DNA of 64,000 nucleotides from the human T2T-CHM13v2.0 reference genome, Homo sapiens (GCA_009914755.4 CP068257.2:8256001-8320000); one strand, 5' to 3'; shown: positions 9,701 through 55,841, counted from the first letter of the stretch. Notes: a model not told the origin generated them from the letters alone. Numbers and translations: made by a program.

Positions 9701-10589
9701 TGCTGAATCATAAGATAGGTTCAATTCTGTGAGATGAATACACACATCACAAAGATGTTTCTCTGAATGCTTCTGTGTAGTTTTTATGTGAAGATATTTC
9801 CTTTTCCACAATAGTCCTGAAAGCGCTCCAATTATCTACCTGTAGATTCTACAAAAAGAGTGTTTCAAAACTGCTCAATTATAAGATAGGTTCAACTCTG
9901 TGAGATGAATGCACACATCACAAAGATGTTTCTCAGAATAATTCTGTGTCGTTCTTTTCTGAAGATATTTGCTTTTCCACAGAAGGCCTCAAAGCACTCC
10001 AAATATCTAATTTCAGATTCTACAAAAACAGTGTTTCAAAACTGCTGAATCATAAGATAGGATCAACTCTGTGAGATGAATGTACACATCACAAAGAAGT
10101 TTCTCAGAATGCTTCCTTGTAGTTTTTATTTGAAGATATTTCCTTTTTCTCCATGGGCTGCAGAGGGCTCCAAATATCCACTTGCAGCTTCTACAAAAAG
10201 AGATATTCAAATCTGCTCAATCAAAAGATAAGTTCACCTCTGTGAGTTTAATGCACACATCACAAAGTCGTTTCTCAGAATGCTTCTTTGTAGTGTTTAT
10301 GTGAAGATATTTCCTTTTCCACAATATACCTCAAAGTGCTCCAAATATCCACTTCTAAATTCTCCAAAAGAGTGTGGAAAAACTGCTCATACGAAGGAAA
10401 GTTTCAACTCTGTGAGATGAATGCACACACCACAAAGAAATTTGTCATTTTTCTGTGTGGTTTTTATGTGAAAATATTTCCTTTTCCACATTAGGCCTCA
10501 AAGCGCTCCAAATATCCACTTGCAGCATCTACAAAGCCAGTGTTTCAAATTTGCTCAATCATAAGATAGGTTCAACTCTGTGAGATGAA

Positions 10590-18328: not shown

Positions 18329-18561
18329 TTTAGAATTTATTTTATTTTATTATTATTACACTTTAAGTTTTAGGGTACATGTTCACATTGTGCAGCTTAG
18401 TTACATATGTGTACACGTGACATGTTGGTAGGCTGCACCCATTAACTTGTCATTTAGCATTAGGTATATCTCCGAATGCTATCTCTCCCCCCTCCCCCAC
18501 CCCACATCTCTCCCCAGAGTGTGATGTTCCCCTTCCTGTGTCCATGTGTTCTCATTGCTCA

Positions 18562-21500
18562 ATTCCCACCTATGAGTGAGAACATGCAGTGTTGGGTTTT
18601 TTGTCCTTGCGATAGTTTACTGAGAATGGTGATTGCCAATTTCATCCATGTCCCTACAAAGGACACGAACTCATCATTTTATGGCTCCATAGTATTCCAT
18701 GGTGTATATGTGCCACATTTTCTTAATCCACTCTGTTATTGTTGGACATTTGGGTTGGTTCCAAGTCTTTCTTATTGTGAATAGTGCTGCAATAAACTTA
18801 TGTGTGCATGTGTCTTTATAGCAGCATGATTTATAGTCCTTGGGTATATACCCAGTAATGAGATGGCTGGGTCAAATTGTATTTCTAGTTCTACATCCCT
18901 GAGGAATGACCACACTGACTTCCACAATGGTTGAACTAGTTTACAGCCCCACAAAAAGTGTAAAAGTTTTCCTATTTCTCCACATCCTCTCCAACACCTG
19001 TTGTTTCCTGAATTTTAATGATTGCCATTCTAACTGGTGTGAGATGGTATCTCATTGTGGTTTTGATTTGCATTTCTCTGATGGCCAGTTAAGGATGAGC
19101 ATTTTTTCATGAGTTTTTTGGTTGCATAAATGTCTTCTTTTGAGAAGTGTCTGTTCATGTCCTTCGCTCACTTTTTGATGGGGTTGTTTGTTTTTTCTTG
19201 TAAATTTGTTTGAGTTCATTGCAAATTCTGGATATTAGCCCTTTGTCAGATAAGTAGGTTGTGAAAACTTTCTCCCATTTTGTACATTGCCTGTTCACTC
19301 TGATGGTAGTTTCTTTTGCTGTGCAGAAGCTCTTTAGTTTAATTAGATCCCATTTGTCAATTTTGGCTTTTGTTGCCATTGCTTTTGGTGTTTTAGACAT
19401 GAAGTCCTTGCCCATGCCTATGTCCTGAATGGTAATGCCTGTGTTTTCTTCTAGGATTTTTATGGTTTTAGGTCTAACGTTTAAGTTTTTAATCCATCTT
19501 GAATTAATTTTTGTATAAGGTGTAAGGAAGGGATCCAGTTTCAGCTTTCTACATATGGCTAGCCATTTTTCCCAGCTCCATTTATTAAACAGGGAATCCT
19601 TTTCCATTGCTGGTTTTGTTCAGGTTTATCAAACATCAGATAGTTTTAGATATGCAGCGTTATTTCTGAGGGCTCTGTTCTGTTCCATTGATCTATTTCT
19701 CTGTTTTGGTACCAGTACCATGCTGTCTTGGTTACTGTAGCCTTGTAGTATAGTTCGAAGTCAGGGAGCGTGATGCCTCCAGCTTTGTGCTTGTGGCTTA
19801 GGATTGACTTGGTGATGAGGGATCTTTTTTGATTCCATATGAACTTTAAAGTAGTTTTTTCCAATTCTGGGAAGAAAGTCATTGGTAACTTGATGGGGAT
19901 GACATTGAATCTATAAATTACTTTGGGCTGTATGGCCATTTTCACGATATTGATTCTTCCTACCAATGAGCATGGAATGTTCTTCCATTTCTTTGTATCC
20001 TCTTTTATTTCATTGAGGAGTGGTTTGTAGTTCTCCTTGAAGAGGTCATTCACGTCCCTTGTAAGTTGGATTCCTAGGTATTTTATTCTCTTTGAAGCAA
20101 TTGTGAATGGGAGTTCACTCATGGTTTGGCTCTCTGTTTGTCTGTTATTGGTGTATAAGAATGCTTGTGATTTTAGTACATTGATTTTGTATCCTGAGAC
20201 TTTGCTGAAGTTGCTTATCAGCTTAAGGAGATTTTGGGCTGAGACAATGGGGTTTTCTAGATATACAATCATGTCTTCTGCAAACAAGCACAATTTGACT
20301 TCCTCTTTTCCTAATTGAATACCCTTTATTTCCTTCTCGTGCCTAATGGCCCTGGCCAGAAATTCCAACATTATGTTGAATAGGAGTGGTGAGAGAGGGC
20401 ATCCCTGTCTTGTGCCAGTTTCCAAAGGGAATGCTTCCAGTTTTTGCCCATTCAGTATGATATTGGCTGTGGGTCTGTCATAGCTAGCTCTTATTATTTT
20501 GAGATACGTCCCATCAATACCTAATTTATTCAGAGTTTTAAGCATGAAGTGTTGTTGAATTTTGTCAAAGGCCTTTTTTGCATCTATTGAGATAATCAGG
20601 TGGTTTTTGTCTTCGGTTCTGTTTATATGCTGGATTACATTTATTGATTTGCATATATTGAACCAGCCTTGCATCCCAGGGATGAAGCCCACTTGATCAT
20701 GGTGGATAAGCTTTTTGGTATGCTGCTGGATTCTGTTTGCCAGTATTTTATTGAGGATTTTTGCATCAATATTCATCAAGGATATGGGTCTAAAGTTTTG
20801 TTTTTTGGTTGGGCCTCTACCCGGCTTTGGTATCTGGATGATGCTGGCCTCATAAAATGAGTTAGGAAGGATTCCCTCTTCTTCTGTTGATTGGAATAGT
20901 TTCAGAAGGAATGGTACCAGTTCCTCCTTGTGCCTCTGGTAGAATTTGACTGTGAATCCATCTGGTCCTGGACTGTTTTTCGTTGTTAAGCTATTGATTA
21001 TTGCCACAATTTCAGAGCCTCTCATTGGTCTATTCAGAGAGTCAACTTCTTCCTGGTTTAGTCTTGGGAGGGTGTATGTGTCAAGGAATTTATTCATTTC
21101 TTCTTGATTTTGTAGTTTATTTGTGTAGAGGTGTAAGTAGTAGTCTCTAATGGTAGTTCATATTTCTGTGGGATTGATGTTTATACCTGCTTTATGATTT
21201 TTTATTGCATCTATTTGATTGTTCTCTCTTTTCTTCTTTATTAGTCTTGGTAGCAGTCTATCACTTTTGTTGATCTTTTCAAAAAAACAGCTCCTGGATT
21301 CATTAATTTTTCAAGGGTTTTTTGTGTCTCTATTTCTTTCAGTTCTACTCTGATTTTACTTATTTCTTGCCTTCTGCTAGCTTTTGAATATGTTTGCTCT
21401 TGCTTTTCTAGTTCTTTTAATTGTGATGTTAGGGTGTCAATTTTCGATCTTTCCTGCTTTCTCTTGTGGGCATTTAGTGCTATAAATTTCCCTCTACACA

Positions 21501-22372
21501 CTGCTTTGAATGTGTCCCAGAGATTCTGGTATGTTGTGTCTTTGTTCTCGTTGGTTTCAAAGATCATCTTTATTTCTGCCTTCATTTCGTTATGTACCCA
21601 GTAGTCATTCAGGAGCAGGTTGTTCAGTTTCCATGTAGTTGAGTGGTTTTGAGTGAGTTTCTTAATCCTGAGTTCTAGTTTGATTGCACTGTGGTCTGAG
21701 AGACAGTTTGTTATAATTTCTGTTCTTTTACATTTGCTGAGGAGGGCTTTACTTCCAACTATGTGGTCAATTTTGGAATAGGTGCAGTGTGGTGCTGAAA
21801 AAAATGTATATTCTGTCAACTTGGGGTGGAGAGTTCTGTAGATGTCTATTAGATCCTCTGGTGCAGAGCTGAGTTCAATTCCTGGGTATACTTGTTAACT
21901 GTCGCTTTGGTCTGTCTAATATAGACAGTGGGATGTTAAAGTCTCCTATTATTAATGTGTGGGAGTCTAAGTCTCTTTGTAGGTCACTCAGGACTTGCTT
22001 TATGAATCTGGATGCTCCTGTATTGGGTGCCTATATATTTAGGATAGTTAGCTCTTCTTGTTGAATTGATCCCTTTACCATTATGTAATGGCCTTCTTTG
22101 TCTCTTTTGATCTTTGTTGGTTTAAAGTCTGTTTTATCAGAGACTAGGATTGCAACCCCTGCCTTTTTTTATTTTCCATTTACTTGGTAGATCTTACTCC
22201 ATCGTTTTATTTTGAGCCTATGTGTGTCTCTGCACGTGAGATAGGTTTCCTGAATACAGCACACTGATGGGTCTTGACTCTTTATCCAAATTGCCAGTCT
22301 ATGTCTTTAATTGGAGCATTTAGTCCATTTACATTTAGAGTTAATATTGTTATGTGTGATTTTGATCCGTCT
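18562..22372 (-). pseudogene. L1#1 ORF2 (endonuclease and reverse transcriptase) pseudogene. It is split into at least 4 frames and the start ATG is lost.
   Basis: ORF-track pieces 21241..21819 (endonuclease C-terminal part with [10 protein letters not shown]), 19646..21097 (483 aa, all reverse-transcriptase motifs) and 19155..19607 (C-terminal part). The reverse-transcriptase catalytic box reads FAEDMIVY rather than FADDMIVY. The start ATG reads AAG, with an adjacent deletion, at ~22370. The ORF ends in the ..SLIGGN-equivalent at ~18562. Confidence 0.85.
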
Positions 22373-22436
22373 TTATGATGTTAGCTGGTTATTTTGCTCT
22401 TTAGTTGATGTAGTTTCTTACTAGCCACAATGGTCT

Positions 22437-23453
22437 TTACAATTTGGCATGATTTTGCAGTGGCTGGTACTGGTTGTTTCTTTCCATGTTTAGTGCTTCC
22501 TTCAGGAGCTCTTTTAGGGCAGGCCTGGTGGTGACAAAATCTCTCAGCATTTGCTCGTCTGTAAAGTATTTTATTTCTCCTTCACTTCTGAAGCTTAGTT
22601 TGGCTGGATATCAAATTCTGGGTTGAAAATTCTTTTCTTTAAGAATGTTGAATATTGGTCCCCACTCTCTTCTGGCTTGTAGAGTTTCTGCCAAGAGATC
22701 AGCTGTTAGTCTGATGGGCTTCCCTTTGAGGGTAACCTGACCTTTCTCTCTGGCTGACCTTAACATTTTTTCCTTCATTTCAACTTTGGTGAATCTGACA
22801 ATTATGTTTCTTGGAGTTCCTCTTCTCGAGGAGTATCTTTGTGGCATTCTGTGTATTTTCTGAATCTGAATGTTGGCCTGCCTTGCTAGATTGGGGAAGT
22901 TCTCCTGGATAATATCCTGCAGAGTGTTTTCCAACTTAGTTCCAATCTCCACATCACTTTCAGGTACACCAATCAGACATAGATATGGTCTTTTCACATA
23001 GTCCCATATTTCTTGGTGGTTTTGTTAATTTCTTTTTATTCTTTTTTCTCTAAACTTCCCTTCTCACTTCATTTTATTCATTTCATCTTCCATCACTGAT
23101 ACCCTTTCTTCCAGTTGATTGCATTGTCTCCTGAGGCTTCTGCATTCTTCGCGTTGTTCTGGAGCCTTGGCTTTCAGCTCCATCAGCTCCTTTAAGCCCT
23201 TCTCTGTATAGGTTATTCTAGTTATACATTCGTCAAATTTTTTTTCAAAGTTTTTAACTTCTTTGCCTTTGGTTTGAATTTCCTCCTGTAGCTCGGAGTG
23301 GTTTGATCGTCTGAAGCCTTTTTCTCTCAACCTGTCAAAGTCATTCTCTGTCCAGCTTTGTTCCATTGCTGGTGAGGAACTGCATTCCTTTGGAGGAGGA
23401 GAGGCACTTTGTTTTTTAGAGTTTCCAGTTTTTCTACTCTGTTTTTTCCTCAT
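22437..23453 (-). pseudogene. L1#1 ORF1 pseudogene with a premature stop or frameshift.
   Basis: 23064..23453 encodes MRKKQSRKTGNSKKQSASPPPKE.., the ORF1p N-terminus and coiled coil. 22611..22997 encodes the RRM and C-terminal-domain portion, LIGVPESDVE..KVEMKEKMLR..KGKPIRLTADL, and ends prematurely. The ORF1 stop is at 22437-22439 and a ~64-bp inter-ORF spacer follows. Confidence 0.85.
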
Positions 23454-24488
23454 CTTTGTGGTTTTATCTACTTTTGGTCTTTGATGATGGTGATGTACAG
23501 TTGGGTTTTTGCTGTGGATGTCCTTTCTGTTTGTTAGTTTTCCTTCTAACAGGTAGACCCTCAGCTGCAGGTCTGTTGGAGTTTGCTAGAGTTCCACTCC
23601 AGATCCTGTTTGCCTGGGTATCAGCAGCGGTGACTGCAGAACAGTGGATTTTCATGAACCACGAATGCTGCTGTCTGATCTTTGCTCTGGAAATTTTGTC
23701 TCAGAGGACTATCCGGCTGTGTGAGGTGTCAGTCTGCCCCTACTGGGTTGTGCCTCTCAGTTAGGCTGTTCATAGTTCAGGGGTCAGGGACCCACTTGAG
23801 GAGGCAGTCTGCCCGTTCTCAGATCTCCAGCTGTGTTCTGGGAGAACCACTGTTCTCTTCAAAGCTGTCAGACAGGGACATTTAAGTCCGCAGAGGTTAC
23901 TGCTGCCTTTTTGTTTGTCTGTGCCCTGCTCTCAGATGTGGAGCCTACAGAGTCATGCAGGCCTCCTAGAGCTGTGGTGGTCTACACCCAGTTCGAGCTT
24001 TCCAGCAGCTTTGTTTACCTAAGAAAGCCTGGGCAATGGAGGTTGCCCCACCACCAGCCTTACTGCCACCTTGTACTTTGATCACAGACTGCTGTGCTAG
24101 CAATCAGTGAGACACTGTGGAGGTAAGACCCTCCGAGCCAGGTGTGGGATATAATATCCTGGTGTGCCATTTTTTAAGCCTGTTTAAAAAGTGCAGTATT
24201 AGTGTGGGAGTGACCTGATTTTCCAGGTGCCATCTGTCGCCCCTTTATTTGATTAGGAAAGGGAACTCCCTGACCACTTCCACTTCCCATGTGAGGAAAC
24301 GCCTCGCTCTGCTTCAGCCCATGCATGGCACCCTGCACCCAGTATCCTGTGCCCACAGTCTGGCACTCCCTAGTGAGATGAACCTGGTATCTCAGATGGA
24401 AATGAAGAAATCACCCATCTTCTGTGTTGCTCATGATAGGAACTGTAGAACAGAGCTGTTCCCATTTGGCCATCTTGACTGCTGCCTC
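23454..24488 (-). promoter_or_regulatory. L1#1 5' UTR, holding the internal sense promoter. The antisense-promoter region would face the alpha satellite beyond 24488. Activity is unknown and probably decayed.
   Basis: Reverse complement of the L1 5' UTR. For example, 23760-23900 is ..cagtctgcccgttctcagatctccagctg..ctgtcagacagggacatttaagtc.. and 24360-24488 is gtctggcactccctagtgagatgaacc..ggccatcttg. Confidence 0.6.
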
Positions 24489-27400
24489 ATTTGCCAGTTT
24501 GCTTCTGTGTAGTTATTATGTGAGAATATTTCCTTTACTACCATAGGCTGCAAAGGGCTCAAAATATCCACTTGCAGATTCTACAAAAAGAGAGTTTCAA
24601 AACTGCTCAATCAAAAGATAGGTTCAACTCGGTGAGTTGTATGCACACATTCCAAAGAAGTTTCTCTAAATGCTTCTGCATAGTTTTTTTGTGAAGATAT
24701 ATCCATTTCCAACATAGTCCACAAAGTGCTCCAAATATCCACTTGCAGATTCTACAAAATGAGTGTTTCAAAACTGCTCAATCAAAAGAATGGTTCATCA
24801 TTGTGAGATGAAATCACACATCACAAAGAAGTTTCTCAGAATGCTTCTGTGTAGTTCTCATGTGAATATATTTCCTTTTCCACCATAGGCCTCAATATGA
24901 TCCAAACATCCAATTTTAGATACCACAAAAAGAGTGTTTCCAAACTGCTCAATCAAAAGAAAGGTTCAATTCTGTGAGATGAAGGCACACATGACCAAGA
25001 CGTTCCTCAGAATTCTTTTTTGTAGTTTTTATGTGAAGGTATTTCCTTTCCCACTATAGGCTGCAAAGGGCTCCAAATATCCTCCTGCGGATTCTACAAA
25101 AAGAGAGTTTCAAAACTGCTCAATCAAAAGATAGTTTCAACTCTGTGAGTTTAATGCACACTTAACAAAGTTGTTTCTCAGAATGCTTCTGTGTAGTTTT
25201 TATGTGAAGATATTCCCGTTTCCACCATAGGCCTTGAAGCACTCCAAATATCCACTTGCAGATTCTACAAAAATAAAGTTTCGAAACTGCTGAATGAAAA
25301 TAAAGGTTTAACACTGTGAGATGAATGCAAATATTGTACAGAAGTTTTTCAGAATGATTCTGTGCAGTTTTTATGTGAAGGTATTTCCTTTTCCACAATA
25401 GGAATCTAAGAGCTCCAAATATCAACTTGCAGATTCTACATAGAGAGTTTTTCAAAACTGCTCAATCAAAAGAAAAGTTCAATTCTGTGAGATGAATGCA
25501 CACATCCCAAAGAGGTTACTTGGAATGCTTCTGTGTACATTTCATGTGAAGATATTTTCTTTTCAACAATAGGCCTCAAAGCGCTCCAATTATCCACTTG
25601 CAGATTCTACAAAAAGAATGTTTCAAAACTACTAACTGAAAAGAAAGATTCATCTCTGTGAGATGAATGCACACATCACCATGAAGTTTCTCAGAATGAT
25701 TCTGTGCAGTTTTTAGTTGAAGATATTCCCATTTCCACCATAGGCCACAAATGGCCCCAAATATCCACTTGTAGATTCTACAAAAAGATAGTTTCAAAAC
25801 TGTTCAATGAAAAAATAGGTTCAACACCGTGAGTTGAATGCACACATCACAGAGAAGTTTCTCAGAAAGTTTCTGTGTAGTTTTTATGTGAAGATGTTTC
25901 CTTTTACACAATAGACCTCAAAGTGCTCCAAATATTCACTTGCAGATACTTCAAAAAGATTGTTTCAAAACTGCTCAATCAAGAGAAATGTTCATCTCTG
26001 TGAGATGAATGCACACATCACAAAGAAGTTTCTCAGAATACTTCTGTCTGTTTTTTATGTGAAGGCATTTCCTTTTCCACAACAGGCCACAAAAGGCTGT
26101 AAATGTCCACTTGCAGATACTACAAAAAGAGAGTTTCAAAATGGCTTAATCAAAAGATAGGTTCATCTCTGTGAATTGAATGCACACATCACAAAGGAGT
26201 TTCTCAGAATACTTCTGTCTAGTTTTCATGTGAAGGCATTTCCTTTTCCCCCATAGGCATCAAATGGTTCCAAACATACACCTGCAGATACTACAAAAAG
26301 AGAGCTTCAAAACTGCTCATCAAAAGATTAATTCACATCTGTGAGTTGAATGCAAACAACACAAAGAATTTTCTCAGAATGCTTCTGTGTGGTCTTAAGT
26401 TATTTCCTTTTCCACAATAGGCCTCAAAGCGTTCCAAATATGAACTTGCAGATTATCCAACAACAGTGTTTCAATACTGCTCAATCAAAAAAAAAAAGGT
26501 ACAACTCTGTGAGATGAAGGCACACATCACAAAGAAGTTTCTCAGAATGATTCTGTGTAGATTTTATGTGAAGATATTTCGTTTTCCAAAATAGGCCTCA
26601 AAGCCCTCCAAATATCCACATGCAGATTCTACAAAGTGAGTGTTTCAAAACTACTCAATCAAAAGAAAGGTTCAACTCTGTGAGTTGAATACACACATCA
26701 CAAAGAAGTTTCTCAGAATGCTTCCATGTACTTTTTACATAAAGATATTTCCTATTCCACCATAGGCATCAAAGCGCTCCAAATACCCTCTTGCAGAACC
26801 TACAAAAAGAGTGTCACAAAACTGCTCAATCAAAAGAACGTTCAACTCTTTGAGATGAAAGTAGATATCACAAAAATGTTTCTCAGAATGCTTCTGTGTA
26901 GTTTTTATGTGAAATATTTGCTTTTCCAGAGTAGGCCTCAAAGCGCTTCTAATATCCACTTGCAGATTCTGCAAAAACTGTGTTTCATAACTGTGCAACC
27001 AAAAGAAAGTTTCAACTCTGTGAGATGAAAGCACACAATGCAAAGACTCTTCTCAGAATGCTTCTGTGTAGTTTTTATGTGAAGATATTGCCTTTTGGAC
27101 AATAAGCTTCAAAGCGCTCCAAGTAACCTCTTGCAGATTCTACAAAAAGAGTGTTTCAAAACTGCTCAATCAAAAGAGAGGTTCAACTCTGTGAGATGAA
27201 TGCACACATCACAAAGAAGTTTCTCAGACTGCTCCTGTGTAGTTTTTTTTTGAAGATATTTCCGTTTCCACCATAGGCCACAAAGGACTCCAAACATCCA
27301 GTTGCATATTCTACTAAAAGAGATTCAAAACCGCTCAATCTAAAAATAAGTTGAACTCCGTGAGTTGAATGTACACATCTCAAAGAATTTTCTCAGAATG

Positions 27401-30400
27401 CTACTGTGTAGTTTTTATGTGAAGATATTTCCTTTTTCAAAACAGGCCTCAAAGACCCCAAATATCCACTTGCAGATTCTACAAAAAGTGTGTTTCAAAA
27501 CTGCTTGATCAGAAGACATCTACAATCTGTGTGATGAATGTACTCATCTCAAAGTAGTCTCTCAGAATGCTTCTGTGAAATTTTTATGTGAAGATATTTC
27601 CTTTTCCACAATAGGCCTCAAAGCGCTCCAAATATCCACTTTCAGATTCTACAAAAAGAAAGATTCAAAACTGCTCAAACAAACCCTAGGTTAAACTCTG
27701 TGTGTTGAATTCACAATTCACGAAGAAATTTATCAGAATGCTACTGTGTAGTTTTTATTTGAAGATTTTTTTTTGCACAATCTGCATCAAAGTTCTCCAA
27801 ATATCAAAAGGCAGATTCTACAAAAAGAGTGTTTCAAAACTGCTCAATCAAAAGAAAGGATTAACTCTGTGAGATGGATGCACACATCACAAAGAAGTTT
27901 CTCAGAAAGCTTCTGTGTGGTCTTTAAGTGAAGATATTTTCTTTTAAAGAGTAGGCCTCATGCGCTCCAAATATCCACTTGCAGATTCTACAAAAAGAGT
28001 GTTTCAAAACTGCTCAATCATAAAATAGGTTCAAACATGTGAGCTGAACGCACACATCACACAGAAGTTTCTCAGAATGCTTCTGTGTAGTTTTTATGTG
28101 AAGATATTTCCTTTACCACCACAAGCCTCAAAGCACTCCAAATATCCACATGCAGATTCTACAAAAAGAGTGTTTCAAAACTGCTCAATCAAAAGAAAGA
28201 TTCATCTCTGTAAGGTGAATGCACATATCACAATGTAGCTTCTGAGAAGGCTTCAGTGTACCTTTTATGTGAAGATATTTCCTTTTCCACAATGGCCTCA
28301 AACTGCTCCAAATATCCACTTGCACATTCTACAAAAAGAGTATTTCACAACTGCTCAATCATAAGATAGGTTCAACTCTGTGAGATGAATGCACACATCA
28401 CAAAGAAGTTTCTCAGAATGCTTCTGTGTAGGTTTTATTTGAAGACATTTCCTTTCCCACCACAGACCGCAAATTGCTCCAAATATCCACTTGCAGATTC
28501 TATAAAAAAAGAGATTCAAAACTGATCAATCATAAGATAGGTTCAACTCTGTGAGATGTATGCACATTTCACAAAGAAGTTTCTCTGAATTCTTCCGTAT
28601 AGTTTTTATGTGAAGATATTTCCTTTTCCACAATAGGCCTCAAAACGCCCCAAATATCCACTTTCAGATTCTACAACTAGAGTGTTTCAAATCTACTAAA
28701 TCATAAGACAGTTTCAAATCTGTGAGATGAATTCACAAATCACAAATATGTTTATCAGAATACTTCTGTGTAGTTTTCACATTAAGATATTTCATTTTCC
28801 ACAATAGGCCTCAAAGCACTCCAAATATCCACTTGCAGATTCTACAAAAAGATTGTTTCAATACTGCACAATCATAAGACAGGTTCAACTGTGTGAGATG
28901 AATGCAGACATCACAAAGAAGTTTCTCAGAATGCTTCTGTGAAGTTTTTATGTGAAGATATTTGCTTTTCCACAGTAGGCCTCAAAGCACTCCAAATATG
29001 CACTTGAAGATTCTACAAAAACAGTGTTCCAAAACTTTTGAATCATAAGATAGGTTCAACTCTGTGAGTTGAATGCACACATTGCAAAGAAATTCCTCAG
29101 AATGCTTCTGGGTAGTTTTTATTTGAAGATATTTCCTTTTCCTCCATAGGCCACAAAGGGCTCCAAATGTCCACTTGCAGATCCTACAAAAAGTGGGAAT
29201 GAAAACTGCTCAATGAAAAGATATGTTCAACTCTGTGAGTTTAATGCACATATCACCAAGTAGTTTCTCAGAATGCTTCTGTGTAATTTTTATGTGAAGA
29301 TATTACCTTTTTCACAATAGGCAACATGGGCTCCAAATACACACTTGCACTTTCTACAAAAAGAGTGTTTCAAAACTGTTCAATCATAAGATAGGTTCAA
29401 CATTGTGAGATGAAAGCACACATCACAAAGAAGTTTCTCAGAATGCTTCTGTGTAGTTCTCATGTGAAGATATTTCCTTTTCCACCATAGGCCACAAAGT
29501 GATACAAACATCCACTTGTAGATACTACAAAAAGAGTGCTTCCAAACTGCTCAATCAAAAGAAAGGATCAACTCTGTGAGATGAAGGCACACATGACCAA
29601 GACGTTCCTCAGAAATCTTTTTTGTAGTTTTTATGTGAAGGTATTTCCTATTCCACCATAGGCCGAAAAGGGCTCCAAATATCCTCTTGCAGATTCTACA
29701 AAAAGAGAGATTCAAAACTGCTCAATCAAAAGATACTTTCTACTCTGTGAGTTTAATGCACACTTAACAAAGTTGTTTCTCAGAATGCTTCTGTGTAGTT
29801 TTTATGTGAAGATATTCCCATTTCCACTATAGGCCTCGAAGCGCTCCAAATATCCACTTGCAGATTCCACAAAAATAAAGTTTCAAAACTGCTGAGTGAA
29901 AAGAAAGGTTCAACACTGTGAGATGAATGCACATATCGCAAAGAAGTTTCTCCGAATGATTCTGTGCAGTTTTTATGTGAAGATATTTCCTTTTCCACAA
30001 TAGGAATCTAAGCACTCCAAATATCAACTTGCAGATTGTACAGAAAGAGTGTTTCAAAACTGCTCAATGAAAAGAAAGGTTCAACTCTGTGAGATGAATG
30101 CACACATCACCATGAATTTTCTCAGAATGATTCTGTGCAGTTTTTATGTGAAGATATTTCCTTTTCCACAATAGGAATCTAAGCACTCCAAATATCAACT
30201 TGCAGATTGTACAGAAAGAGTGTTTCAAAACTGCTCAATGAAAAGAAAGGTTCAACTCTGTGAGATGAATGCACACATCACCATGAATTTTCTCAGAATG
30301 CTTCTGTGTAGTTTTTAGTTGAAGATATTCCCATTTCCACCATACGCTGCTAATGCCTCCAAATATCCACTTGCAGATTCTACAGAAAGAGAGTTTCAAA

Positions 30401-33400
30401 ACTGTTCAATTAAAAGACAGATTCACCTCCGTGAGTTGAATGCACACATCACAGAGAAGTTTCTCAGAAAGCTTCTGTGTAGTTTTTATGTGAAGATATT
30501 TCCTTTTACACAACAGGCCTCAAAGTGCTCCAAATATTCACTTGCAGATACTTCAAAAAGATTGTTTCAAAACTGCTCAATCAAGAGAAATGTTCATCTC
30601 TGTGAGATGAATGCACACATCACAAAGAAGTTTCTCAGAAAACTTCTTTGTGTTTTTTATGTGAAGGCATTTCCTTTTCCACAATAGGCCACAAAAGACT
30701 CCAAATATCCACTTGCAGATACTATAAAAAGAGAGTTTCAAAGTGGCTCAATCAAAAGATAGGTTCAACTCTGTGAGTTGAATCACATATCACAAAGGAG
30801 TTTCTCAGATTGCTTCTGTGTAGTTTTTATGTGAAGATATTTCCTTTTCCACAATAGGCCTCAAAGCTTTTCAAATATCCACTTGCAGATTAGAAAAAAC
30901 AGTGTTTCAAAACTGTTCAATCCAAAGTTTCAACTCTGTGAGATGAATGCACGTATCCAAAGAAGTTTCTCAGAATGATTCTGTGTAGTTTTTATGTGAA
31001 GATATTTCGTTTTCCAAAATAGGCCACAAAGCCCTCCAAATATCCACTTGCAGATTCTACAAATAGAGTGTTTCAAAACTGCTCAAGCAAAAGAAAGGTT
31101 CAACTGTGTGAGATAATTGCACACATCACAAAGAAGTTTCTCAGAATGCTTCTGTGTAGTTTTAATGTGAATATATTTGTTGTTCAACTGTTGGCCTCAA
31201 AGCGCTCCAAATATCCACTTGCATATTCTACAAATAGAGTGTTTCAAAACTACTCAATCAAAAGAAAGGTTCAACTCTGTGAGTTGAATACACACATCCA
31301 CAGAAGTTTCTCAGAATTCTTATGTGTAATTTTTATGTGAAGATATTTCCTATTCCACTGTAGGCCTCAATGCGCTCCAAATATCCTCTTGCAGATTCTA
31401 CAAAGAGAGTGTAACAAAACTGCTCAATCAAAAGAAAGTTCAGCTCCTTGAGATGAATGCACACATCGCAAATAAGTTTCTCAGAATGCTTCTGTGTAGT
31501 TTTTATGTGAAGATATTTGTTTTTCCAGAGTAGGCCTCAAAGCACTCCTAATATCCACTTGCAGATTCTGCAAAGACTGTGTTTCATAACTTCTCAATCA
31601 AAAGAAAGTTTCAAGTCGGTGAAATGAAAGCACACAACACAAAGACCCTTCTCAGAATGCTTCTGTGTAGTTTTTATGTGAAGATATTTAATTTTAGACA
31701 ATAAGCCTCAAAGCGCTCCAAATAACCACTTGCAGATTCAAAAAAAAAGAGCTTTTCAAAACTGCTCAATCCAAAGAGAGGTTCAACTCTGTGAGATGAA
31801 TGCACACATCCCAAAGAAGTTTCTCAGACTGCTTCTGTGTAGTTTTTTTTTTTAAGATATTTCCGTTTCCACAATAGGCCACAAAGGAATCCAAATATCT
31901 AGTTGCAGAATCTACAAAAAGAGAGATTCAAAACTGCTCGATCAAAAAATAGGTTCAACTCTGTGAGTTGAATGTACACATCACAAAGAATTTTCTGAGA
32001 ATGTTTCTGTGTAGTTTTTAGGTGAAGATATTTCCTTTTTCAAAACAGGCCTCAAAAGCCCCCAAATATCCACTTGCAGATTCTACAAAAAGATTGTTTC
32101 AATACTGCTCAATCATAAGGCAGTTTCAACTGTGTGAGATGAATGAAGACATAACAAAGATTTTTCTCAGAATGCTTCTGTGAAGTTTTTATGTGAAGAT
32201 ATTTGCTTTTCCACAGTAGGCCTCAAAGCCCTCTAAATATCCACTTGAAGATATTACAAAAACAGTGTTTCAAAACTGCTGAATCATAAAATAGGTTCAA
32301 CTCTGTGATTTGAATGCACACATAGCAAAGAAGTTCCTCAGAATGCTTCTGGGTAGTTTTAATTTGAAGATATTTCCTTTTCCTCCATAGGCCACAAAGG
32401 GCTCCAAATGTCCACTTGCAGATCCTGCAAAAAGAGGGAATCAAAACTGCTCAATGAAAAGATAGGTTCACCTCTGTGGGTTTAATGCACATATCACAAA
32501 GTCGTTTCTCAGAATGCTTCTGTGTAGTTTTTATATGAAGATATTTCCTTTTTCACAATAGGCTGCATGGGTTCCAAATATACACTTGCATTTTCTACAA
32601 AAAGAGTGTTTCAAAACTGCTCAATCATAAGATAGGTTGAACATTGTGAGATGAAAGCACACATCAGAAAGAAGTTTCTCAGAATGCTTCTGTGTAGTTC
32701 TCATGTGAAGATATTTCCTTTTCCACCTTAGGCTGCAAAGGGCTCCAAATATCCGCTTGCAGATTCTATAAAAAGAGAGATTCAAAACTGATCAATAATA
32801 AGATAGGTTCAACCCTGTGAGTCGTATGCACACATCAGAAAGAAGATTCTCAGAAGTCTTTTTTGTAGTTTTTATGTGAAGATATTTCCTTTTCCACAAT
32901 ATGCATCAAAGCGCTCCAAATATCCAATTGCAGATTGTACAGAAAGAGTGTTTCAAAACTGCTCAATCAAAAGAAAGTTTAAACTTTGTGAGATGAAGGA
33001 ACACCTCGCAAAGAAGTTTCTCAGAATGCCTTTGTTTTATTTTAAGATATTTCCTTTTCCTCCATAGCCCGCAAAAGGCTCCAAATATCCCCTGGCAGAT
33101 TCTGCAAAAAGAGAGATTCAAAACTGCTAAATCAAAAGATAGCTTCAACTCTTCGAATTCAATGCACACATCAGAAAGAAGTTTCTCAGAATTCTTTGGT
33201 GTAGTTTTTATATGAAGATATTTCGTTTTCCATGATAGGCTGCAAAGGGTTCAAAATACTCACTTGCAGATTCTACAAAAACAGAGATTCAAAACTGCTC
33301 AATCAAAACATACGTTCAACTCTGTGTGTTGAATGCACACATTACAGAGAAGTTTCAAAGAATGCTTCTATGTAGTTTTTATGTGAAGATATATCCTTTT

Positions 33401-33500
33401 CCACAATAAGCCACAAAGGGCTCCAAATATCCACTTGCAGATTCTACAAAAACGGTGTTTCATAAAGCCCAATCATAAGATAGGTTCAACTCTGTGAGAT
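24489..33500 (-). repeat. Divergent HOR-like tandem units. Unit 1 is ~24489-29100, 4.6 kb or 27 monomers. Unit 2 is ~29100-32340, ~3.24 kb or 19 monomers, and is missing the equivalent of ~27600-28800. Unit 3 starts at ~32340. Identity between units is ~88-93%.
   Basis: 24840-27600 is colinear with 29440-32200 at an offset of ~4600. 28830-29500 is colinear with 32070-32760 at an offset of ~3240. The monomer at ~32040-32210 is a hybrid: its first half matches the 27440 monomer and its second half matches the 28840 monomer. That is the signature of an unequal crossover inside a monomer. Confidence 0.75.
29960..30301 (-). repeat. Perfect tandem duplication of a single 171-bp monomer.
   Basis: 29960-30130 and 30131-30301 are identical by eye across the whole monomer: ..tctgtgcagtttttatgtgaagatatttccttttccacaataggaatctaagcactccaaatatcaacttgcagattgtacagaaagagtg..catcaccatgaattttctcagaatga. 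Confidence 0.9.
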
Positions 33501-41350: not shown

Positions 41351-44300
41351 GCACACATCACAAAGAATTTTCTCAGATTGCTTCTGCCTAGATTTTATAT
41401 GAAGATATTTCCTTTTCTAAAATAGGCCACAAAGCACTCCAAATATCCACTTGCAGATTCTACATAAAGAGTATTTCCAAACTGCTGAATCAAAAGAAAA
41501 GTTCAACTCTGTGAGATGAACGAACGCATCACAAAGCGTTTCTCAGAGTTCTTCTGTCTAGTTTTTATGTGAAGATATTTCCTTTTCCACCATAGGCCTG
41601 AAAGCGCTCCAAATGTCCACTTGCAAATTCTACAAAAAGAGAGTTTCAAAACTGCTTAAAAAAAGAATGTTCAAACTCCTTGAGATGAATGCACACATCA
41701 CAAAGAAGTTTCTCAGATTGCTTCTGTCTAGATTTTATGTGAAGACATTTCCTTTTCTACTATAGGCCGCAAAGCACTCCAAATGTCCACTTGCAGATTC
41801 TACAAAAAGAATGTTTCCAAACTGCTCAATCAAAAGAAAGGTTCTACACTGTAAGATGAATGAACACATCTCAAAGAAGTTTATCAGAATTCTTCTGTCT
41901 AGTTTTTATGTGAAGATATTCCCTTTTCCACCATAGTCTTCAAAGCACTCCAAATGTCCAGTTGTAGATTCTGCAAAAAGAGTTTCAAAACTGCTCAATC
42001 AAAAGAAAGGTTTAACTCTGTGAGATGAATGCACACATCACAAAGAAGATTTTCAGATTCCTTCTGTCTGGATTTTATGTGAAGATATTTCCTATTCTAC
42101 CAATGGAAATAAAGTGCTCCAAATGTGCACGTGCAGATTCTACAAAACGAGTGTTTCCAAACTGCTCAATCAAAAGAGAGGTACAACTCCGTGAGGTGAA
42201 CACACACATCACAGAGAAGTTTGTCATAATTCTTCTGTGTAGTTTTAAACTGAAGATATTTCCTTTTCCACCATAGGCCTCAAAACACTCCAAATGTCCT
42301 ATTGTAGAATCTACAAAAATAGAGTTTCAAAACTGCTCAATCAAACTAAAGGTTCAACTCTCTGAAATGAACGCATTCATCACAAAGAAGTTTCTCAGAA
42401 TTCTTCTGTCTAGTTTCTATGTGAAGATATTTGCTTTTACACCATAGGACTCAAAGCACTCCAAATGTCCACTTGAAGATTCCACGAAAAGAGTGTTTCC
42501 AAAATACTGAATCAAATGAGACGTTCAACTCTGTGAGATGAACGCACACATCATAAAGAAGTTTCTCAGAATTCTTCTGTCTAGTTTTTATGTGAAGATA
42601 CTTCCTTTTCTTCCATAGGAATCAAAGGGCTTCAAATGTCCCTTTGCAAATACTACAAATAGAGAGTTTCAAAACTGTGCAATCAACAGAAAGGTTTAAT
42701 TCTGTAAGACTAATGTACACATCATGAAGAAGTTTCTCAGATTGCTTCTTTCTAGATTTTATGTGAAGATATTTCCTTTTCTACCATAGGCTGCAAAGCG
42801 CTCCAATTGCAGATTCTACAAAAAAAGAGTTTCAACACAGTTCTATAAAAAGAAAGCTTTAAATCTATGAGATGAATGCATACATCACAATGAAGTTTCT
42901 CAGATTCCTTGTGTCTAGATTTTATGTGAAGATATTTCCTTTTCTGTGATAGGCCTCAAAGCACTCCAAATGTCCACTTTCATATTCTACAAAAAGAGGG
43001 TTTCCAAACTGCTCAATCTAAAGAAAGGTTCAACTCTGTGAGATGAACGCACACATCACAAAGAAGTCTGTCAGAATTCTCCTGTCTAGTTTTTATTTGA
43101 AGATAGTACCTTTTCCAGCATAGGCCTCAAAGCGATCTAAATGTCCACTTGCAGATTCTACAAAAACAGAGTTTCAAAACTGCTCAATCAAAAGAAAGTT
43201 TCAACTCTGTGAGATGAACGCACACATCACAAAGTAGTTTCTCAGAATGTTTCTATCTAGTTTTTATGTGAAGATATTTCCTTTTCCACCATAGGTCTCA
43301 AAGCGCTCCAAATGTTCACCTGCAGATTCTACAAAAAGAGTGTTTCTAAAATGCTCAATCCAAAGAAAGGTTCAAATATGTGAGATGAACGCACACATCA
43401 CAAACAAGTTTCTCAGAATGCTTCTAGATAGTTTTTATATGAAGATATTTCCTTTTCTACCATAGGACACAAAGTGCTCTGAATGTCCACCTGAAGATTC
43501 TACAAAAACAGTGTTTCCAAACTGCTCAATCAAAAGAAAGTTTCAACTCTGTGAGATGAAAGTACAAATCACAAAGAAGTTTCACAGAATTCTTCTATCT
43601 ACCTTTTATGGGAAGATATTTCCTTTTCCACCATAGGCCTCAAAGCACTCAAAATGTCCACTTGCAGATTCTACGAAAAGAGAGTTTCAAAATTGCTCAA
43701 TCAAAAGTAAGTTTTAACTCTGTGAGGTGAATGCACACATAACAAAGAAGTTTATCAGATTGCTTCTGTATAGATTTTATTTGAACATATTTCCTTTTCT
43801 ACCCTAAAGCACTCCAAATGTCCACTTGCAGGTTCTACAAAAAGAGTCTTTCCAAAATGCTCAATCAAAAGAAAGGTTCAACTCTGTGAGAGGAATACAC
43901 GCATCACAAAGAAGTTTCTCAGAATTCTTCTGTCTAGTTTTTATGTGTAGATATTTCCTTTTGTACCATAGGACTCAAAGGGCTCCAGTGGTCCCCATGC
44001 AGATTCTGCAAAAAAAGAGTTTCAAACTTCTCAATAAAAAGAAAGGTTTAACTCTGAGAGATGAATGCACACATCGCAAAGAAGTTTCTCAGACTCTTTC
44101 TCTCTAGATTTTATGTGAAGATATTTCCTTTTCTGCCATAGGCCACAAAGTGCTGCAAATGTTGTTTCAGATTTTACAAAAAGAATGTTTCCATACTGCT
44201 CAATCAAAAGAAAGGTTCAACTCTGTGAGATGAATGCACACAACACAAAGACATTTCTCAGAATTTTTCTGTCTAGTTTTTATGTGAAGATATTTCCTTT

Positions 44301-47300
44301 TGCACCATAGGCCTCAAAGCGCTCCAAATGTCCACTTGCAGATTCTACAAAAAGAGAGTTTCAAAACTGCTCAATCAAAAGCAAGTGTTAACTCTGTGAG
44401 ATGAATGCACACATAAAAAAGAAGTTTCTCAGATTACTTCTGTCTAGATTTTATGTGAAGATATTTCATTTTCTACCATAGGCTGCAAAGCGCTCCAATA
44501 TCCACTTGCAGATTCTTCAAAAAGAGATTTGCAAAACTGTTCAATCAAAAGAAAGTGTTAACTCTGTGAGATTAATGCACACATCACAAAAAAGTTTCTC
44601 AGATTGCTTCTGTCTAGATTTTATGTGAAGATATTTCCTTTTCTACCATAGGCTGCAAAGCACTCCAAATGCCCTCTTGCAGATTCTACAAAAAAAGTGT
44701 TTCCAAACTTCTTAATCAAAAGAAATGTTCAACTCTGTAAGATGAACGCACTCTTCACAAAGAAGTTTCTCAGAATTCTTCTGTCTAGTTTTCATGTGAA
44801 AATACTTCCTTTTCCACCATAGGGCTCAAGGCGCTTGAAATGTCCACTTGCGGGTTCTACAAAAAGCATATTTCAAAACTCGTCTTTCAAAAGAAAGGTT
44901 CAACTCTAGGAGATGAAAAAACACATTGCAAAGAAGTTTTTCAGAATGTTCCTATCTAGTATTTATGTGAAGATATTTCCTTTTCCACCATAGGCATCAA
45001 AGTGCTCCAAATGTCCACTTGCAACTTCTACTAAAGGAGGGTTTCAAGACTACTCAATCAAAAGAATGTTTTAACTCTGTGAGATGAATGCACACATCAT
45101 AAAGAAGTATCTCAGATTGTTTCTTTCTAGATTTTATGTGAAAATATTTCCTTTTCTAACTTAGGCCGTAAAGTCCTCCAAATGTCCACTTGCAGATTCT
45201 ACAAAAAGAGTGTTTCCAAACGGCTCAATCAAAAGAAACATTCACCTCTGTGAGATGAACACACACATCACAAAGATGTTTCTCAGAGTTCTTCTATCTA
45301 GTTTTTATGTGAAGATATTTCCTTTTCCACCATTGTCCTCAAAGCACTCCAAATGTCCACTTGCAGACTCTACAAAAAGAGAGTTTCAAAATTGCTCAAT
45401 CAAATCAAAGGTTTAACTCTGTGAGATGAATGCTCACATCACAAAGAAGTTTCTCAGATTGCTTCGGTCTAGATTTTATGTGAGAATATTTCCTTGTCTA
45501 CCATAGTCCGCAGAGAGCACAAAAAGTCCTCTTGCAGATTCTACTAAAAGAGTCTTTCCAAACTGTTCAACCAAAGGAAAGGTTAAACTATGTGAGATGA
45601 ATGCTCACATCACTAAGAAGTTTCTAAGATTGCTTCTGTCTAGATTTTATGTGAAGATATTTCTTTTTCTACCAAAGGCGGCAAAGTGCACAAAATAGCC
45701 ACTTGCAGATTCTGCAAAAAGAGTGTTTCAAAACTGCTCAATCAAAAGAAAGGTTCAGCTCCGTGAGAAGAACGCACACATCACAATGTAGATCCACAAA
45801 ATTCTTCTGTCTGGTTTTTATATAAACATATTTTGTTTTCCACCATAGGCTTCAAAGCGTTCCAAATGTCCACTTGCAGACTCGACAAAAAGAGAGATTC
45901 AAAACTGCTCAATCAAATAAAGGTTTAATTTTGGGAGATGCATGCACACATCACAAAGAAGTTTCTCAGATTGCTTCTGTCTACAATTTAGGTGAAGATA
46001 TTTCCTTTTTTACCAGAGGAAGCAAAGCGTTCCAAATGTCCACTTGCAGATTCTACAAAAAAGAGTGTTTCCAAACTGCTCAATCAAAAGAAAGGTTCAA
46101 TTCTGTGAGATGAATGCACACATCACAATGAAGTTTCTCAGAATTCTTCTGTCTAGTTTTTATGTGAAGATATTTCCTTTTCCACCATAGACCTCAAACC
46201 GCTCCAAGTGTCCACTTGCACATTCTACAAAAAGAGAGTTTCAAAACTGCCCTATCAAAAAAGAGGTTTAACTCTGTGAGATGAATGCACATAGCACAAA
46301 GTAGTTTCTCAGATTGCTTCTGTCTAGATTTTAAGTGAAGATGTTTCCTTTTTTACCATAGGCAGAAAAGCGTCCCAAATGTCCACTTGCAGATTGTACA
46401 AGAAGACTGCTCAATCAAAAGAAAGTTTCAACTCTGTGAGATGAACGCACACATCATAAAGTAGTTTCTCAGAATGTTTCTATCTAGTTTTTATGTGAAG
46501 ATATTTCCTTTTCCACCATAGGTCTCAAAGCGCTCCAAATGTTCACCTGCAGATTCTACAAAAAGAGTGTTTCTAAAATGCTCAATCCAAAGAAAGGTTC
46601 AAATATGTGAGATGAACGCACACATCACAAACAAGTTTCTCAGAATGCTTCTAGATAGTTTTTATATGAAGATATTTCCTTTTCTACCATAGGACACAAA
46701 GTGCTCTGAATGTCCACCTGAAGATTCTACAAAAACAGTGTTTCCAAACTGCTCAATCAAAAGAAAGATTCAACTCTGTAAGATGAACGCAGACGTCCTG
46801 AACAAGTTTCACAGAATTCTTCTGTCTAGTTTTTATGTGAAAATATTTCCTTTTCCACCTTAGGCCTCAAATTGCTCCAAAAAAAAAAAAAAAAACAGAC
46901 ATTAAAAAAAAAAAAAGATAGGTTCAACTCTGTGAGTTGAATGCACACATCACAAAGAAGTTTCTCAGATTGCTTCTGTCTAGATTTTATCTGAAGATAT
47001 TTCCTTTTCCATTAGAGGCTGCAAAGTGCTCCAAATATCCACTTGCAGATTCAACAAAAAGAGTTTTTCCAAACAGCTCTATCAAAAGAAACGTTCAACT
47101 CTGTGAGATGAATGCACACATCACAAAGAAGTTTATCAGACTGCTTTTGTCTACATTTTATGTGAAAATATTCCCTTTTCTAAAATGGGCCAAAAAGCCC
47201 TCCAAATGTCCACTTTCAGATTCCACAAAAAGAGTGTTTCAAAACTGCTCAATTAAATGTAAGATTCAATTCTGTGAGATGAATGAACACGTCACAAAGA

Positions 47301-51741: not shown

Positions 51742-51754
51742 TTTTTTTTTTTTT

Positions 51755-52019: not shown

Positions 52020-55841
<3,822 letters not shown>

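What the first reader, a model, noticed from the sequence alone, without database searches (positions are those of the whole stretch)
24489..33500. Divergent HOR-like tandem units of 27 and 19 monomers with a recombinant hybrid monomer
24840-27600 pairs with 29440-32200 at +4600, and 28830-29500 pairs with 32070-32760 at +3240, with ~88-93% identity. The result is a tandem array of long units in which the second unit has lost ~7 monomers.

At ~32040-32210 a single monomer is a chimera of two non-adjacent unit-1 monomers. Its first half, tttcaaaacaggcctcaaag..ccccaaatatccacttgcagattctacaaaaag, comes from 27440. Its second half, attgtttcaatactgc.caatcataag.cag.ttcaactgtgtgagatgaatg.agacat, comes from 28840. 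This chimera marks an unequal-crossover breakpoint at base-pair resolution.

Identity far below that of active HORs, together with L1 insertions, fits the divergent-HOR and monomeric layers that flank active centromere arrays in complete assemblies.
Basis: seen in the sequence. Interest (0 to 1): 0.5.

Follow-up and report, generated by a model that had tools for sequence, protein, structure and literature searches.

The report
Two-copy duplication in monomeric alpha satellite
A 4.6-kb stretch of old, non-HOR primate centromere-flanking satellite DNA was duplicated in tandem once and one copy then lost eight 171-bp repeats, leaving two recognisable recombination joints; this is a clean but ordinary footprint of unequal exchange, not a higher-order-repeat array.

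Summary
Window 24815-29416 (27 monomers, 4602 bp) is followed by a second copy at 29417-32657 (19 monomers, 3241 bp). Well-paired monomers are 88-95% identical, against a flat background of about 80%.

The chimeric joint is real. Copy 2 follows 27xxx up to 32061 and 288xx from 32093. The switch falls in a 31-bp tract identical in both parents, so resolution is 31 bp rather than a single base pair.

I also found the other joint. Monomer 29387-29557 is a hybrid of the monomer at 32628 (left part) and the one at 24785 (right part). The exchange lies in an ~83-bp tract present three times, giving H-X-H -> H-X-H-X-H.

The interpretation needs a downgrade. There are only 2.02 copies. No 27- or 19-monomer periodicity exists elsewhere. 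All monomers are A-type, and the 64 kb contains no CENP-B box. Two old L1s and a strand inversion are present. This is a monomeric alpha-satellite layer carrying a local tandem duplication plus an in-register deletion. Both phenomena are well documented, so interest is low.

The parts
24815..29416 (+). Copy 1 of the duplicated unit (27 monomers, 4602 bp): H1 + rest of A (to 27457/27488), B (8 monomers), C.
   Evidence: Diagonals and the monomer matrix.
24815..24897 (+). H1, the first of three copies of the ~83-bp tract in which the duplicating exchange occurred.
   Evidence: m2/m29 match at 79/83, m29/m48 at 79/83 and m2/m48 at 76/83. The private variant GTTCTCATGTGAA occurs only at 24854, 29456 and 32697 in the 64 kb.
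27458..27488 (+). Left parental copy of the 31-bp identity tract CCAAATATCCACTTGCAGATTCTACAAAAAG (in m17).
   Evidence: Exact-match check. It contains the last P1-specific position before the switch.
27489..28851 (+). Segment B plus tract: about 1363 bp (8 monomers, m18-m25 in register) present in copy 1 and absent from copy 2. Its limits can slide left by up to 31 bp.
   Evidence: No partner at lag 27 or 19, and no lag +/-8 relatives (0.73-0.87, which is background). The offset changes from 4604 to 3241 at the joint.
28821..28851 (+). Right parental copy of the same 31-bp identity tract (in m25).
   Evidence: Only m17, m20 and m25 carry this exact 31-mer in copy 1.
28852..29416 (+). Segment C of copy 1 (end of m25 through m28, plus the left 30 bp of m29).
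   Evidence: Pairs with 32093-32657 at +3241, at 93-94% identity.
29387..29557 (+). Duplication-junction monomer m29. Its left part resembles m48 (32628), its right part resembles m2 (24785), and the switch lies inside H2/1 (29417-29499).
   Evidence: Three-way alignment gives 32:10 left versus 7:33 right; max-chi-square 28.3, permutation p <= 1e-4, Fisher 8e-8.
29417..32657 (+). Copy 2 of the unit (19 monomers, 3241 bp): A' (29417-32061), joint tract, C' (32093-32657).
32062..32092 (+). Deletion joint in copy 2: a 31-bp tract identical to both parents, within which the exchange occurred.
   Evidence: The last 8 informative sites to its left (32019-32061) are all P1-type. From 32093 onward the sites are P2-type.
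32658..32740 (+). H2, the third copy of the H tract (in m48). Similarity to the unit ends at about 32740.
30116..30288 (+). Patch of about one monomer in copy 2 overwritten by the sequence 171 bp to its left (m33 is 95.9% identical to m32). Register is preserved, so this is a later conversion-like event.
   Evidence: BLAST 29775-30317 versus 29946-30488.
30755..31260 (+). Scrambled three-monomer patch (m37-m39) relative to copy 1 m10-m12 (26153-26661). Only m12~m38 pair, at lag 26. The history is unresolved.
18338..24489 (-). Old, ORF-broken full-length-size L1 (6152 bp) that bounds the finding on the left. It lies 326 bp outside the duplication.
   Evidence: A gap in the monomer tiling, RVT_1 hit at 5.7e-45, broken ORFs and a degenerate TSD.

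Best explanation
The interval is part of a monomeric (non-HOR, all A-type) alpha-satellite layer that records two in-register unequal homologous exchanges.

**Event 1: duplication.** Two monomers 27 units apart, the ancestors of m2 and m48, shared an ~83-bp near-identical tract H. An exchange within H duplicated the intervening 4602 bp in tandem. This produced H-X-H-X-H and left m29 as a hybrid of m48-left and m2-right.

**Event 2: deletion.** An exchange between the m17-type and m25-type monomers of one copy removed 8 monomers (about 1363 bp). It occurred inside a 31-bp perfectly shared tract and created the chimeric joint at 32062-32092.

**Afterwards.** The copies diverged by scattered point substitutions of about 7-10%. 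There was also one monomer-sized conversion (30116-30288) and one scrambled three-monomer patch.

**Shown:** the anatomy, both joints, the shared tracts, and the absence of any wider periodicity.

**Inferred:** the molecular route (sister-chromatid or homologue crossover versus another homology-directed route), the order of the two events, and the age. At ordinary neutral rates the age would be tens of millions of years.

Nothing suggests that the sequence has a function. It is a structural fossil.
For: - **Alpha-satellite identity.** TRF reports a 171-bp period. 308 monomers tile everything except the two L1s. Modal monomer length is 171.
- **Monomeric character.** Identity by lag is flat at 0.793-0.799. 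Any register aligns at 80-82% across the window. There are 0 CENP-B boxes. A-box is closer than B-box in 262 of 265 monomers, with 3 ties.
- **Duplication.**
- **Deletion joint.**. The exact 31-mer is present in only 19 of about 308 monomers, and in copy 1 only in m17, m20 and m25, so the exchange used two of three possible partners.
- **Duplication joint and triple H tract.**, including the variant found only 3 times in 64 kb.
- **B is not a local duplicate.**
- **Divergence.** Mismatches between copies are unclustered (dispersion 1.2; adjacent mismatches 8 versus 7.98 expected), which fits simple post-duplication divergence. K2P is 0.074-0.10.
- **Context matches published descriptions of monomeric layers.** These report common L1s, inversions and 16-30% intra-array divergence (10.1101/2021.07.12.452052; PMC9549924). 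Hybrid monomers and whole-monomer indels are described as routine (PMC9248890; PMC9549924).
Against: - The suprachromosomal-family class of the monomers could not be assigned, because no HumAS-HMMER or SF consensus set was available. 'Monomeric SF4+-like' therefore rests on indirect features.
- The m2/m48 similarity in H (76/83, top 1.7% of random in-phase pairs) together with a shared private variant requires an earlier relationship between two monomers 46 units apart in the present sequence. I cannot explain that relationship.
- Divergence is mildly uneven: 7.1% in m2-m9 versus 9.6% in m13-m17, with a two-sided p of about 0.05 by my own hand calculation from the counts.
- The ts:tv ratio is about 1, which is unusual for neutral primate DNA.
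- The three-monomer scrambled patch is not accounted for.
- A one-step replication-based origin gives the same end product and cannot be excluded.
Confidence: 0.85

Rival explanations
1. This is the remnant of a genuine higher-order-repeat array (a divergent HOR, dHOR) whose 27-monomer unit was once amplified many times. The 19-mer would then be a structural variant of that HOR.
For: - Multi-monomer units lie in tandem, with inter-copy identity (89-94%) in the range quoted for dHORs ('intra-array divergence typically over 10%', PMC9549924).
- The deletion of whole monomers with a hybrid joint is exactly how HOR structural variants look.
- The third partial copy of H could be read as the start of a third unit.
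Against: - There are only 2.02 copies, with sharp boundaries. Sequences immediately outside (24490-24814 and 32741 onward) show only background similarity at lag 27 or 19.
- No B-type monomers or CENP-B boxes occur, whereas dHORs are described as remnants of SF1-3/SF5 arrays.
- According to the review, HORs found so far in SF4 proper and SF6 are all homogeneous.
- The window contains several other unrelated short local duplications at lags 8 and 10 and at other offsets. Sporadic duplication therefore appears to be the norm here.
Confidence: 0.08
2. The 19-monomer unit (A-C) is ancestral and was duplicated. The 8 monomers of B were later inserted into copy 1.
For: The end structure A-B-C-A'-C' is formally compatible with this. 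The B monomers are somewhat atypical: m19 matches nothing better than 0.825.
Against: - An in-register gain by unequal exchange would make B a copy of its neighbours at an identity at least equal to the A/A' level (about 92%). Instead, lag +/-8 identities are 0.73-0.87, and no close relative exists anywhere in the 64 kb.
- Copy 2 carries the hybrid joint inside a tract shared by m17 and m25. Copy 1 shows no joint signature at either edge of B.
Confidence: 0.04
3. The same anatomy arose in a single complex replication-based event. Template switching or break-induced replication would have copied A-B-C, switched back to H, copied A, and then jumped forward to C, rather than two separate crossovers occurring.
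For: Both joints lie in short tracts of identity (about 83 bp and 31 bp). These are shorter than the homology usually required for meiotic NAHR (my own background knowledge). Meiotic crossover is said to be repressed at centromeres (PMC9549924). A/A' and C/C' divergences are similar (7.1-9.6% versus 7.0%), so the data do not separate the two events in time.
Against: Nothing in the sequence distinguishes this from two sequential exchanges. Both joints are perfectly in register and carry no inserted or templated extra bases, which is equally what homologous exchange gives. Two simple events of a kind seen repeatedly in this window are the more economical reading.
Confidence: 0.12
4. The structure is an assembly artefact: a collapse or mis-join in satellite DNA.
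For: Satellite arrays are prone to mis-assembly (general knowledge).
Against: The copies differ at about 7-10% of sites, and background monomers differ at about 20%. That is far too divergent for read-level confusion. The joints sit in phase with coherent parental signals on both sides for hundreds of bp.
Confidence: 0.01

Closest known systems
Monomeric ('dead layer', SF4+-type) alpha satellite flanking primate centromeres
   Same: - 171-bp A-type monomers with no higher-order periodicity.
- About 20% pairwise divergence.
- Old L1 insertions and a strand inversion.

This matches the published descriptions.
   Different: The SF class was not assigned here. This stretch additionally carries a 27-monomer two-copy tandem duplication.
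HOR structural variants with hybrid monomers (Uralsky 2019; CentromereArchitect/HORmon; review PMC9549924)
   Same: A whole-monomer in-register deletion whose joint fuses the prefix of one monomer to the suffix of another, with the ~171-bp length conserved.
   Different: Those variants are described in multi-copy homogeneous HOR arrays and recur many times. Here the event is a singleton in a two-copy duplication within a non-HOR array, and the 'parents' are 6-10% diverged paralogues rather than near-identical HOR copies.
Divergent HOR (dHOR) arrays
   Same: Tandem multi-monomer units with roughly 10% divergence between copies, sited in decayed pericentromeric satellite.
   Different: - Only about 2 copies.
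- No B-type monomers.
- No sign of a formerly larger array.
- Not shown to derive from SF1-3/5 HOR monomer classes.
Homology-mediated tandem duplication or deletion (unequal crossover / NAHR-type H-X-H -> H-X-H-X-H)
   Same: A flanking homology tract is present in n+1 copies. Joints fall inside tracts of shared identity, with no extra bases.
   Different: The homology tracts are very short (31 and ~83 bp) and sit within an ~80%-identical periodic background that enforces the register.

Membership tests
Alpha satellite | Tandem head-to-tail ~171-bp monomers related to the alpha consensus | tested here: met
   TRF finds period 171 across 5-51746 and 57824-64000. An nhmmer profile tiles 308 monomers. 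Modal length is 171.
Homogeneous/active HOR array | Many tandem copies of a multi-monomer unit with about 95-100% identity between in-register copies | tested here: not met
   There are 2.02 copies. In-register identity is 89.2% (A/A') and 93.0% (C/C').
Homogeneous/active HOR array | Presence of B-type monomers or CENP-B boxes (SF1-3) | tested here: not met
   The pattern TTCGNNNNANNCGGG has 0 matches on both strands. No monomer is closer to the B-box than to the A-box.
Divergent HOR (dHOR) | Residual higher-order periodicity over an array of units, with >10% intra-array divergence | tested here: not met
   Divergence is in range, but periodicity is limited to one duplication with sharp ends. 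No other lag-27/19 signal exists.
Divergent HOR (dHOR) | Monomers belong to HOR-derived classes (HumAS-HMMER / SF1-3, 01/02, 5) | not testable with these tools
   No SF HMMs or consensus set were available. The supplements I checked contain no sequences.
Monomeric alpha-satellite layer (SF4+) | No higher-order periodicity; one monomer class; 16-30% intra-array divergence | tested here: met
   The lag profile is flat at 0.793-0.799. Median pairwise identity is 0.806. Any register aligns at 80-82%.
Monomeric alpha-satellite layer (SF4+) | Interrupted by old L1s and inversions | tested here: met
   Two minus-strand L1s (6152 and 6073 bp) with broken ORFs, an RVT_1 hit, and 91.6% mutual identity. 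A strand switch occurs at 57822.
Monomeric alpha-satellite layer (SF4+) | Assignment to a specific SF/monomer class (M1, etc.) | not testable with these tools
   This needs HumAS-HMMER. The 171-bp length (not 172) and the all-A-type composition are only suggestive.
Hybrid monomer / in-register unequal-exchange joint | Prefix from one parental monomer and suffix from a non-adjacent one, length about 171 bp, better than any single parent | tested here: met
   - Left 57 bp: 96.5% to P1 versus 89.7% to P2.
- Right 114 bp: 93.9% to P2 versus 78.9% to P1.
- Chimera 94.7% versus best single monomer 92.4%.
- Context test p <= 1e-4.

The most novel reading that the evidence does not exclude
The two joints, and the fact that the deletion used two of only three monomers in the unit that carry an exact 31-bp match, may show something about 'dead' monomeric layers. 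These layers may keep undergoing homology-guided unequal exchange long after homogenisation stops, with a minimal processing tract of only about 30-80 bp. On that reading this 27-mer doublet is a caught-in-the-act seed of a higher-order repeat arising inside an SF4+-type layer. The review cited reports only homogeneous HORs in such layers so far.
Probability: 0.12. Interest if true: 0.35.

Novelty: already known. Interest (0 to 1): 0.15.

Why it matters
It matters little beyond bookkeeping. The locus is a tidy, fully resolvable example of how alpha-satellite arrays change by in-register unequal exchange. Both the duplication joint and the deletion joint can be mapped to short identity tracts.

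It could serve as a teaching case, or as one data point in a genome-wide survey of exchange-tract lengths and positions in decayed satellite layers. It does not open a new question.

Its practical value for a scan is as a caution. A two-copy segmental duplication in monomeric satellite should not be labelled a HOR or dHOR.

Tried and rejected
- **Self-BLAST.** A whole-window self-BLAST with permissive settings timed out. I replaced it with k-mer diagonals and a stringent BLAST.\n- **Dimeric organisation.** TRF slightly prefers period 342, so I looked for an SF5/SF2-like pattern. The lag profile shows no even/odd alternation, so I rejected it.\n- **Origin of B.** I tested whether B arose as a local 8-monomer duplication in copy 1 and rejected this.\n- **Paralogues of the 9-kb interval.** I searched elsewhere in the window, including the inverted block, and found only about 80-82% background similarity.\n- **Recurrence of 19-monomer offsets.** Offsets of about 19 monomers recur in the window (3227 at 43179; 3243 at 58665). 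I asked whether they reflect a shared periodicity. They are separate, short, unrelated matches, and 3227 is not a multiple of 171.\n- **Scrambled patch.** I tried to resolve m10-12 versus m37-39 as simple hybrids by comparing thirds of monomers, without a clear answer.\n- **SF consensus sequences.** I looked for these in Shepelev 2009 and in the supplements of the 2021 review so that I could classify monomers. None are held as text.\n- **Literature on breakpoint position.** A search for positional preference of alpha-satellite recombination breakpoints returned nothing directly usable.\n- **repeat finder.** Its output was dominated by the 171-bp family and served only as a cross-check.

Full report
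**What the window is**

TRF finds a 171-bp tandem repeat over 5-51746 and 57824-64000. An nhmmer profile built from the window's own consensus tiles 308 monomers, 271 on the + strand and 37 on the - strand. The only gaps are 18338-24489 (6152 bp) and 51749-57821 (6073 bp).

Both gaps are minus-strand L1 elements.
- Their ORFs are broken.
- One ORF fragment hits the reverse-transcriptase family RVT_1 at 5.7e-45.
- The two elements are 91.6% identical over 5.3 kb, but their 5' ~0.8-0.9 kb do not align.

The satellite is monomeric in character.
- Median pairwise monomer identity is 0.806.
- Mean identity is the same at every lag from 1 to 12 (0.793-0.799).
- Any register of one block aligns to any other block at 80-82%.
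- No CENP-B box occurs in 64 kb.
- No monomer is closer to the B-box than to the A-box: A is closer in 262, with 3 ties.
- Modal monomer length is 171.

This matches published descriptions of the decayed monomeric layers around primate centromeres: no periodicity, 16-30% divergence, common L1s and inversions (10.1101/2021.07.12.452052; PMC2729386; PMC9549924).

**Check of the observation**

The two off-diagonals are real and local.
- Ungapped scans single out offsets 4602 and 3241.
- 20-mer diagonals place them at 24815-27579 and about 28820-29733.
- Stringent BLAST gives 24750-26249 / 29352-30850 at 91.6% and 28821-29486 / 32062-32727 at 94.1%.
- The repeat finder independently shows 92-94% in-register pairs against about 80% for other registers.

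I numbered monomers from m0 = 24490. On that numbering, m2-m17 pair with m29-m44 at lag 27, and m26-m29 pair with m45-m48 at lag 19. Global identity is 89.2% for A/A' and 93.0% for C/C'.

The signal is well above chance. The lag-27 16-monomer run (0.891) is the maximum of 27,984 such runs, which have mean 0.792 and SD 0.023. The lag-19 4-monomer run (0.921) exceeds the 99.9th percentile of 0.877.

**Anatomy**

- Copy 1 spans 24815-29416 (4602 bp, 27 monomers) and consists of A, B and C.
- Copy 2 spans 29417-32657 (3241 bp, 19 monomers) and consists of A' and C'.
- A further 83 bp (32658-32740) repeats the start of the unit.
- B comprises 8 monomers, m18-m25 in register (about 1363 bp). It has no partner in copy 2.

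The loss is therefore 8 monomers, not about 7.

**The deletion joint**

I aligned copy 2 (31773-32457) against the two copy-1 regions it could derive from: P1 (27173-27850) and P2 (28533-29216).
- Left of 32061, 47 of 60 informative sites follow P1, including the last 8 in a row.
- From 32093 onward, 65 of 72 follow P2.
- Max-chi-square is 63.7, with permutation p <= 1e-4 and Fisher 2e-16.

The switch lies in 32062-32092, the 31-mer CCAAATATCCACTTGCAGATTCTACAAAAAG. This sequence is identical in the joint, at 27458 and at 28821. Resolution is therefore 31 bp, not one base pair.

The exact 31-mer is carried by only 19 of about 308 monomers. In copy 1 it occurs only in m17, m20 and m25. The exchange joined two of the three possible exact partners.

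Taken as an isolated 171-bp monomer, however, the chimera model (94.7%) beats the best single parent (92.4%) through only four diagnostic sites. The strong evidence comes from the flanking context.

By the conventional consensus phase, which I recall from memory and which is consistent with the window's own TRF consensus, the tract lies mid-monomer. It would therefore also be scored as a hybrid monomer under that phase. The field already notes that this label depends on the chosen start site (PMC9549924).

Monomer m29 (29387-29557) is itself recombinant.
- Upstream of about 29417 it follows m47/m48.
- Downstream of about 29500 it follows m2/m3.
- The split is 32:10 versus 7:33, with max-chi-square 28.3, permutation p <= 1e-4 and Fisher 8e-8.

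Between these points, the three segments 24815-24897, 29417-29499 and 32658-32740 are near-identical (79/83, 79/83 and 76/83). They share the variant GTTCTCATGTGAA, which occurs nowhere else in the 64 kb.

This is the H-X-H -> H-X-H-X-H signature of a tandem duplication made by exchange between two pre-existing similar tracts. The remaining differences within H are private to one copy. The exchange point therefore cannot be narrowed below about 83 bp.

**Direction and alternatives**

If B had been gained in copy 1 by unequal exchange, it should resemble its neighbours at lag +/-8 at about 92% or better. The observed values are 0.73-0.87, which is background, and B has no close relative anywhere in the window. 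Deletion from copy 2 is therefore favoured.

The order of the two events cannot be determined, and a single complex template-switching event cannot be excluded. A/A' divergence (7.1% and 9.6% in two halves) and C/C' divergence (7.0%) are similar.

Mismatches in the well-paired parts are not clustered: dispersion is 1.2, and there are 8 adjacent mismatches against 7.98 expected. This fits ordinary post-duplication substitution.

K2P of 0.074-0.10 implies tens of millions of years at ordinary primate rates. That is my inference, and the proposed hypermutability of dead arrays would shorten it.

**Later events inside copy 2**

- 30116-30288 has been overwritten by the sequence 171 bp to its left (m33 is 95.9% identical to m32). 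Register is preserved, so this looks like a conversion.
- A three-monomer patch (30755-31260 versus 26153-26661) is scrambled. Only m12~m38 pair, at lag 26. I could not resolve its history.

**Comparison with known categories**

The events themselves are standard and well documented in HOR arrays: whole-monomer in-register indels, hybrid joints, and local duplication by unequal exchange (PMC9248890; PMC9549924).

The 'HOR-like / dHOR' label fails on the tests I could run.
- There are only 2.02 copies, with sharp ends.
- There is no wider periodicity.
- There are no B-type monomers.

Assignment to an SF class needs HumAS-HMMER and could not be done here. The window also holds other unrelated short duplications, such as lag 8 at 96.9% and lag 10 at 91.9%. 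This one is simply the longest of a common class.

**Verdict**

The phenomenon is already known, and interest is low.

Noticed in passing
window 51749-57821 and 57822-64000: The second L1 (minus strand) sits exactly at a strand switch of the satellite. The left flank is in + orientation and ends at profile position 77. The right flank is inverted, so no target-site duplication is possible. This suggests an inversion breakpoint at, or mediated by, the L1.
   Followed up: partly
window 18338-24489: The first L1 looks like a simple insertion. The array resumes in phase, with a degenerate ~11-14-bp target-site duplication (ACTGCTGTGTA / GCTTCTGTGTA). The two L1s are 91.6% identical over 5.3 kb, but their 5' UTRs do not align, so they probably belong to different L1PA subfamilies.
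   Followed up: partly
window 43179-43560 and 46406-46787: A 382-bp pair is 99.2% identical at offset 3227, which is not a multiple of 171. It is far younger than anything else in the window and may be a recent conversion or small transposed copy.
   Followed up: no
window 10563-11505 and 11930-12872; 948-1944 and 2650-3645: Other local tandem duplications occur in the same array: an 8-monomer lag at 96.9% and a 10-monomer lag at 91.9%.
   Followed up: no
window 24815-26152 and 28852-29416 versus their copies: Substitutions between the paralogous copies have ts:tv of about 1 (99:103). Only 10 of 118 fall at CpG. This ts:tv ratio is unusually low for primate neutral DNA.
   Followed up: partly
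window 24854, 29456, 32697: The variant GTTCTCATGTGAA is private to the three H tracts. The ancestors of m2 and m48 must therefore already have shared this tract before the duplication, and I have no explanation for that.
   Followed up: partly
window 26153-26661 versus 30755-31260: A three-monomer patch is not colinear between the copies (m12~m38 at lag 26; m10, m11, m37 and m39 are unpaired), yet the overall register is restored afterwards.
   Followed up: partly
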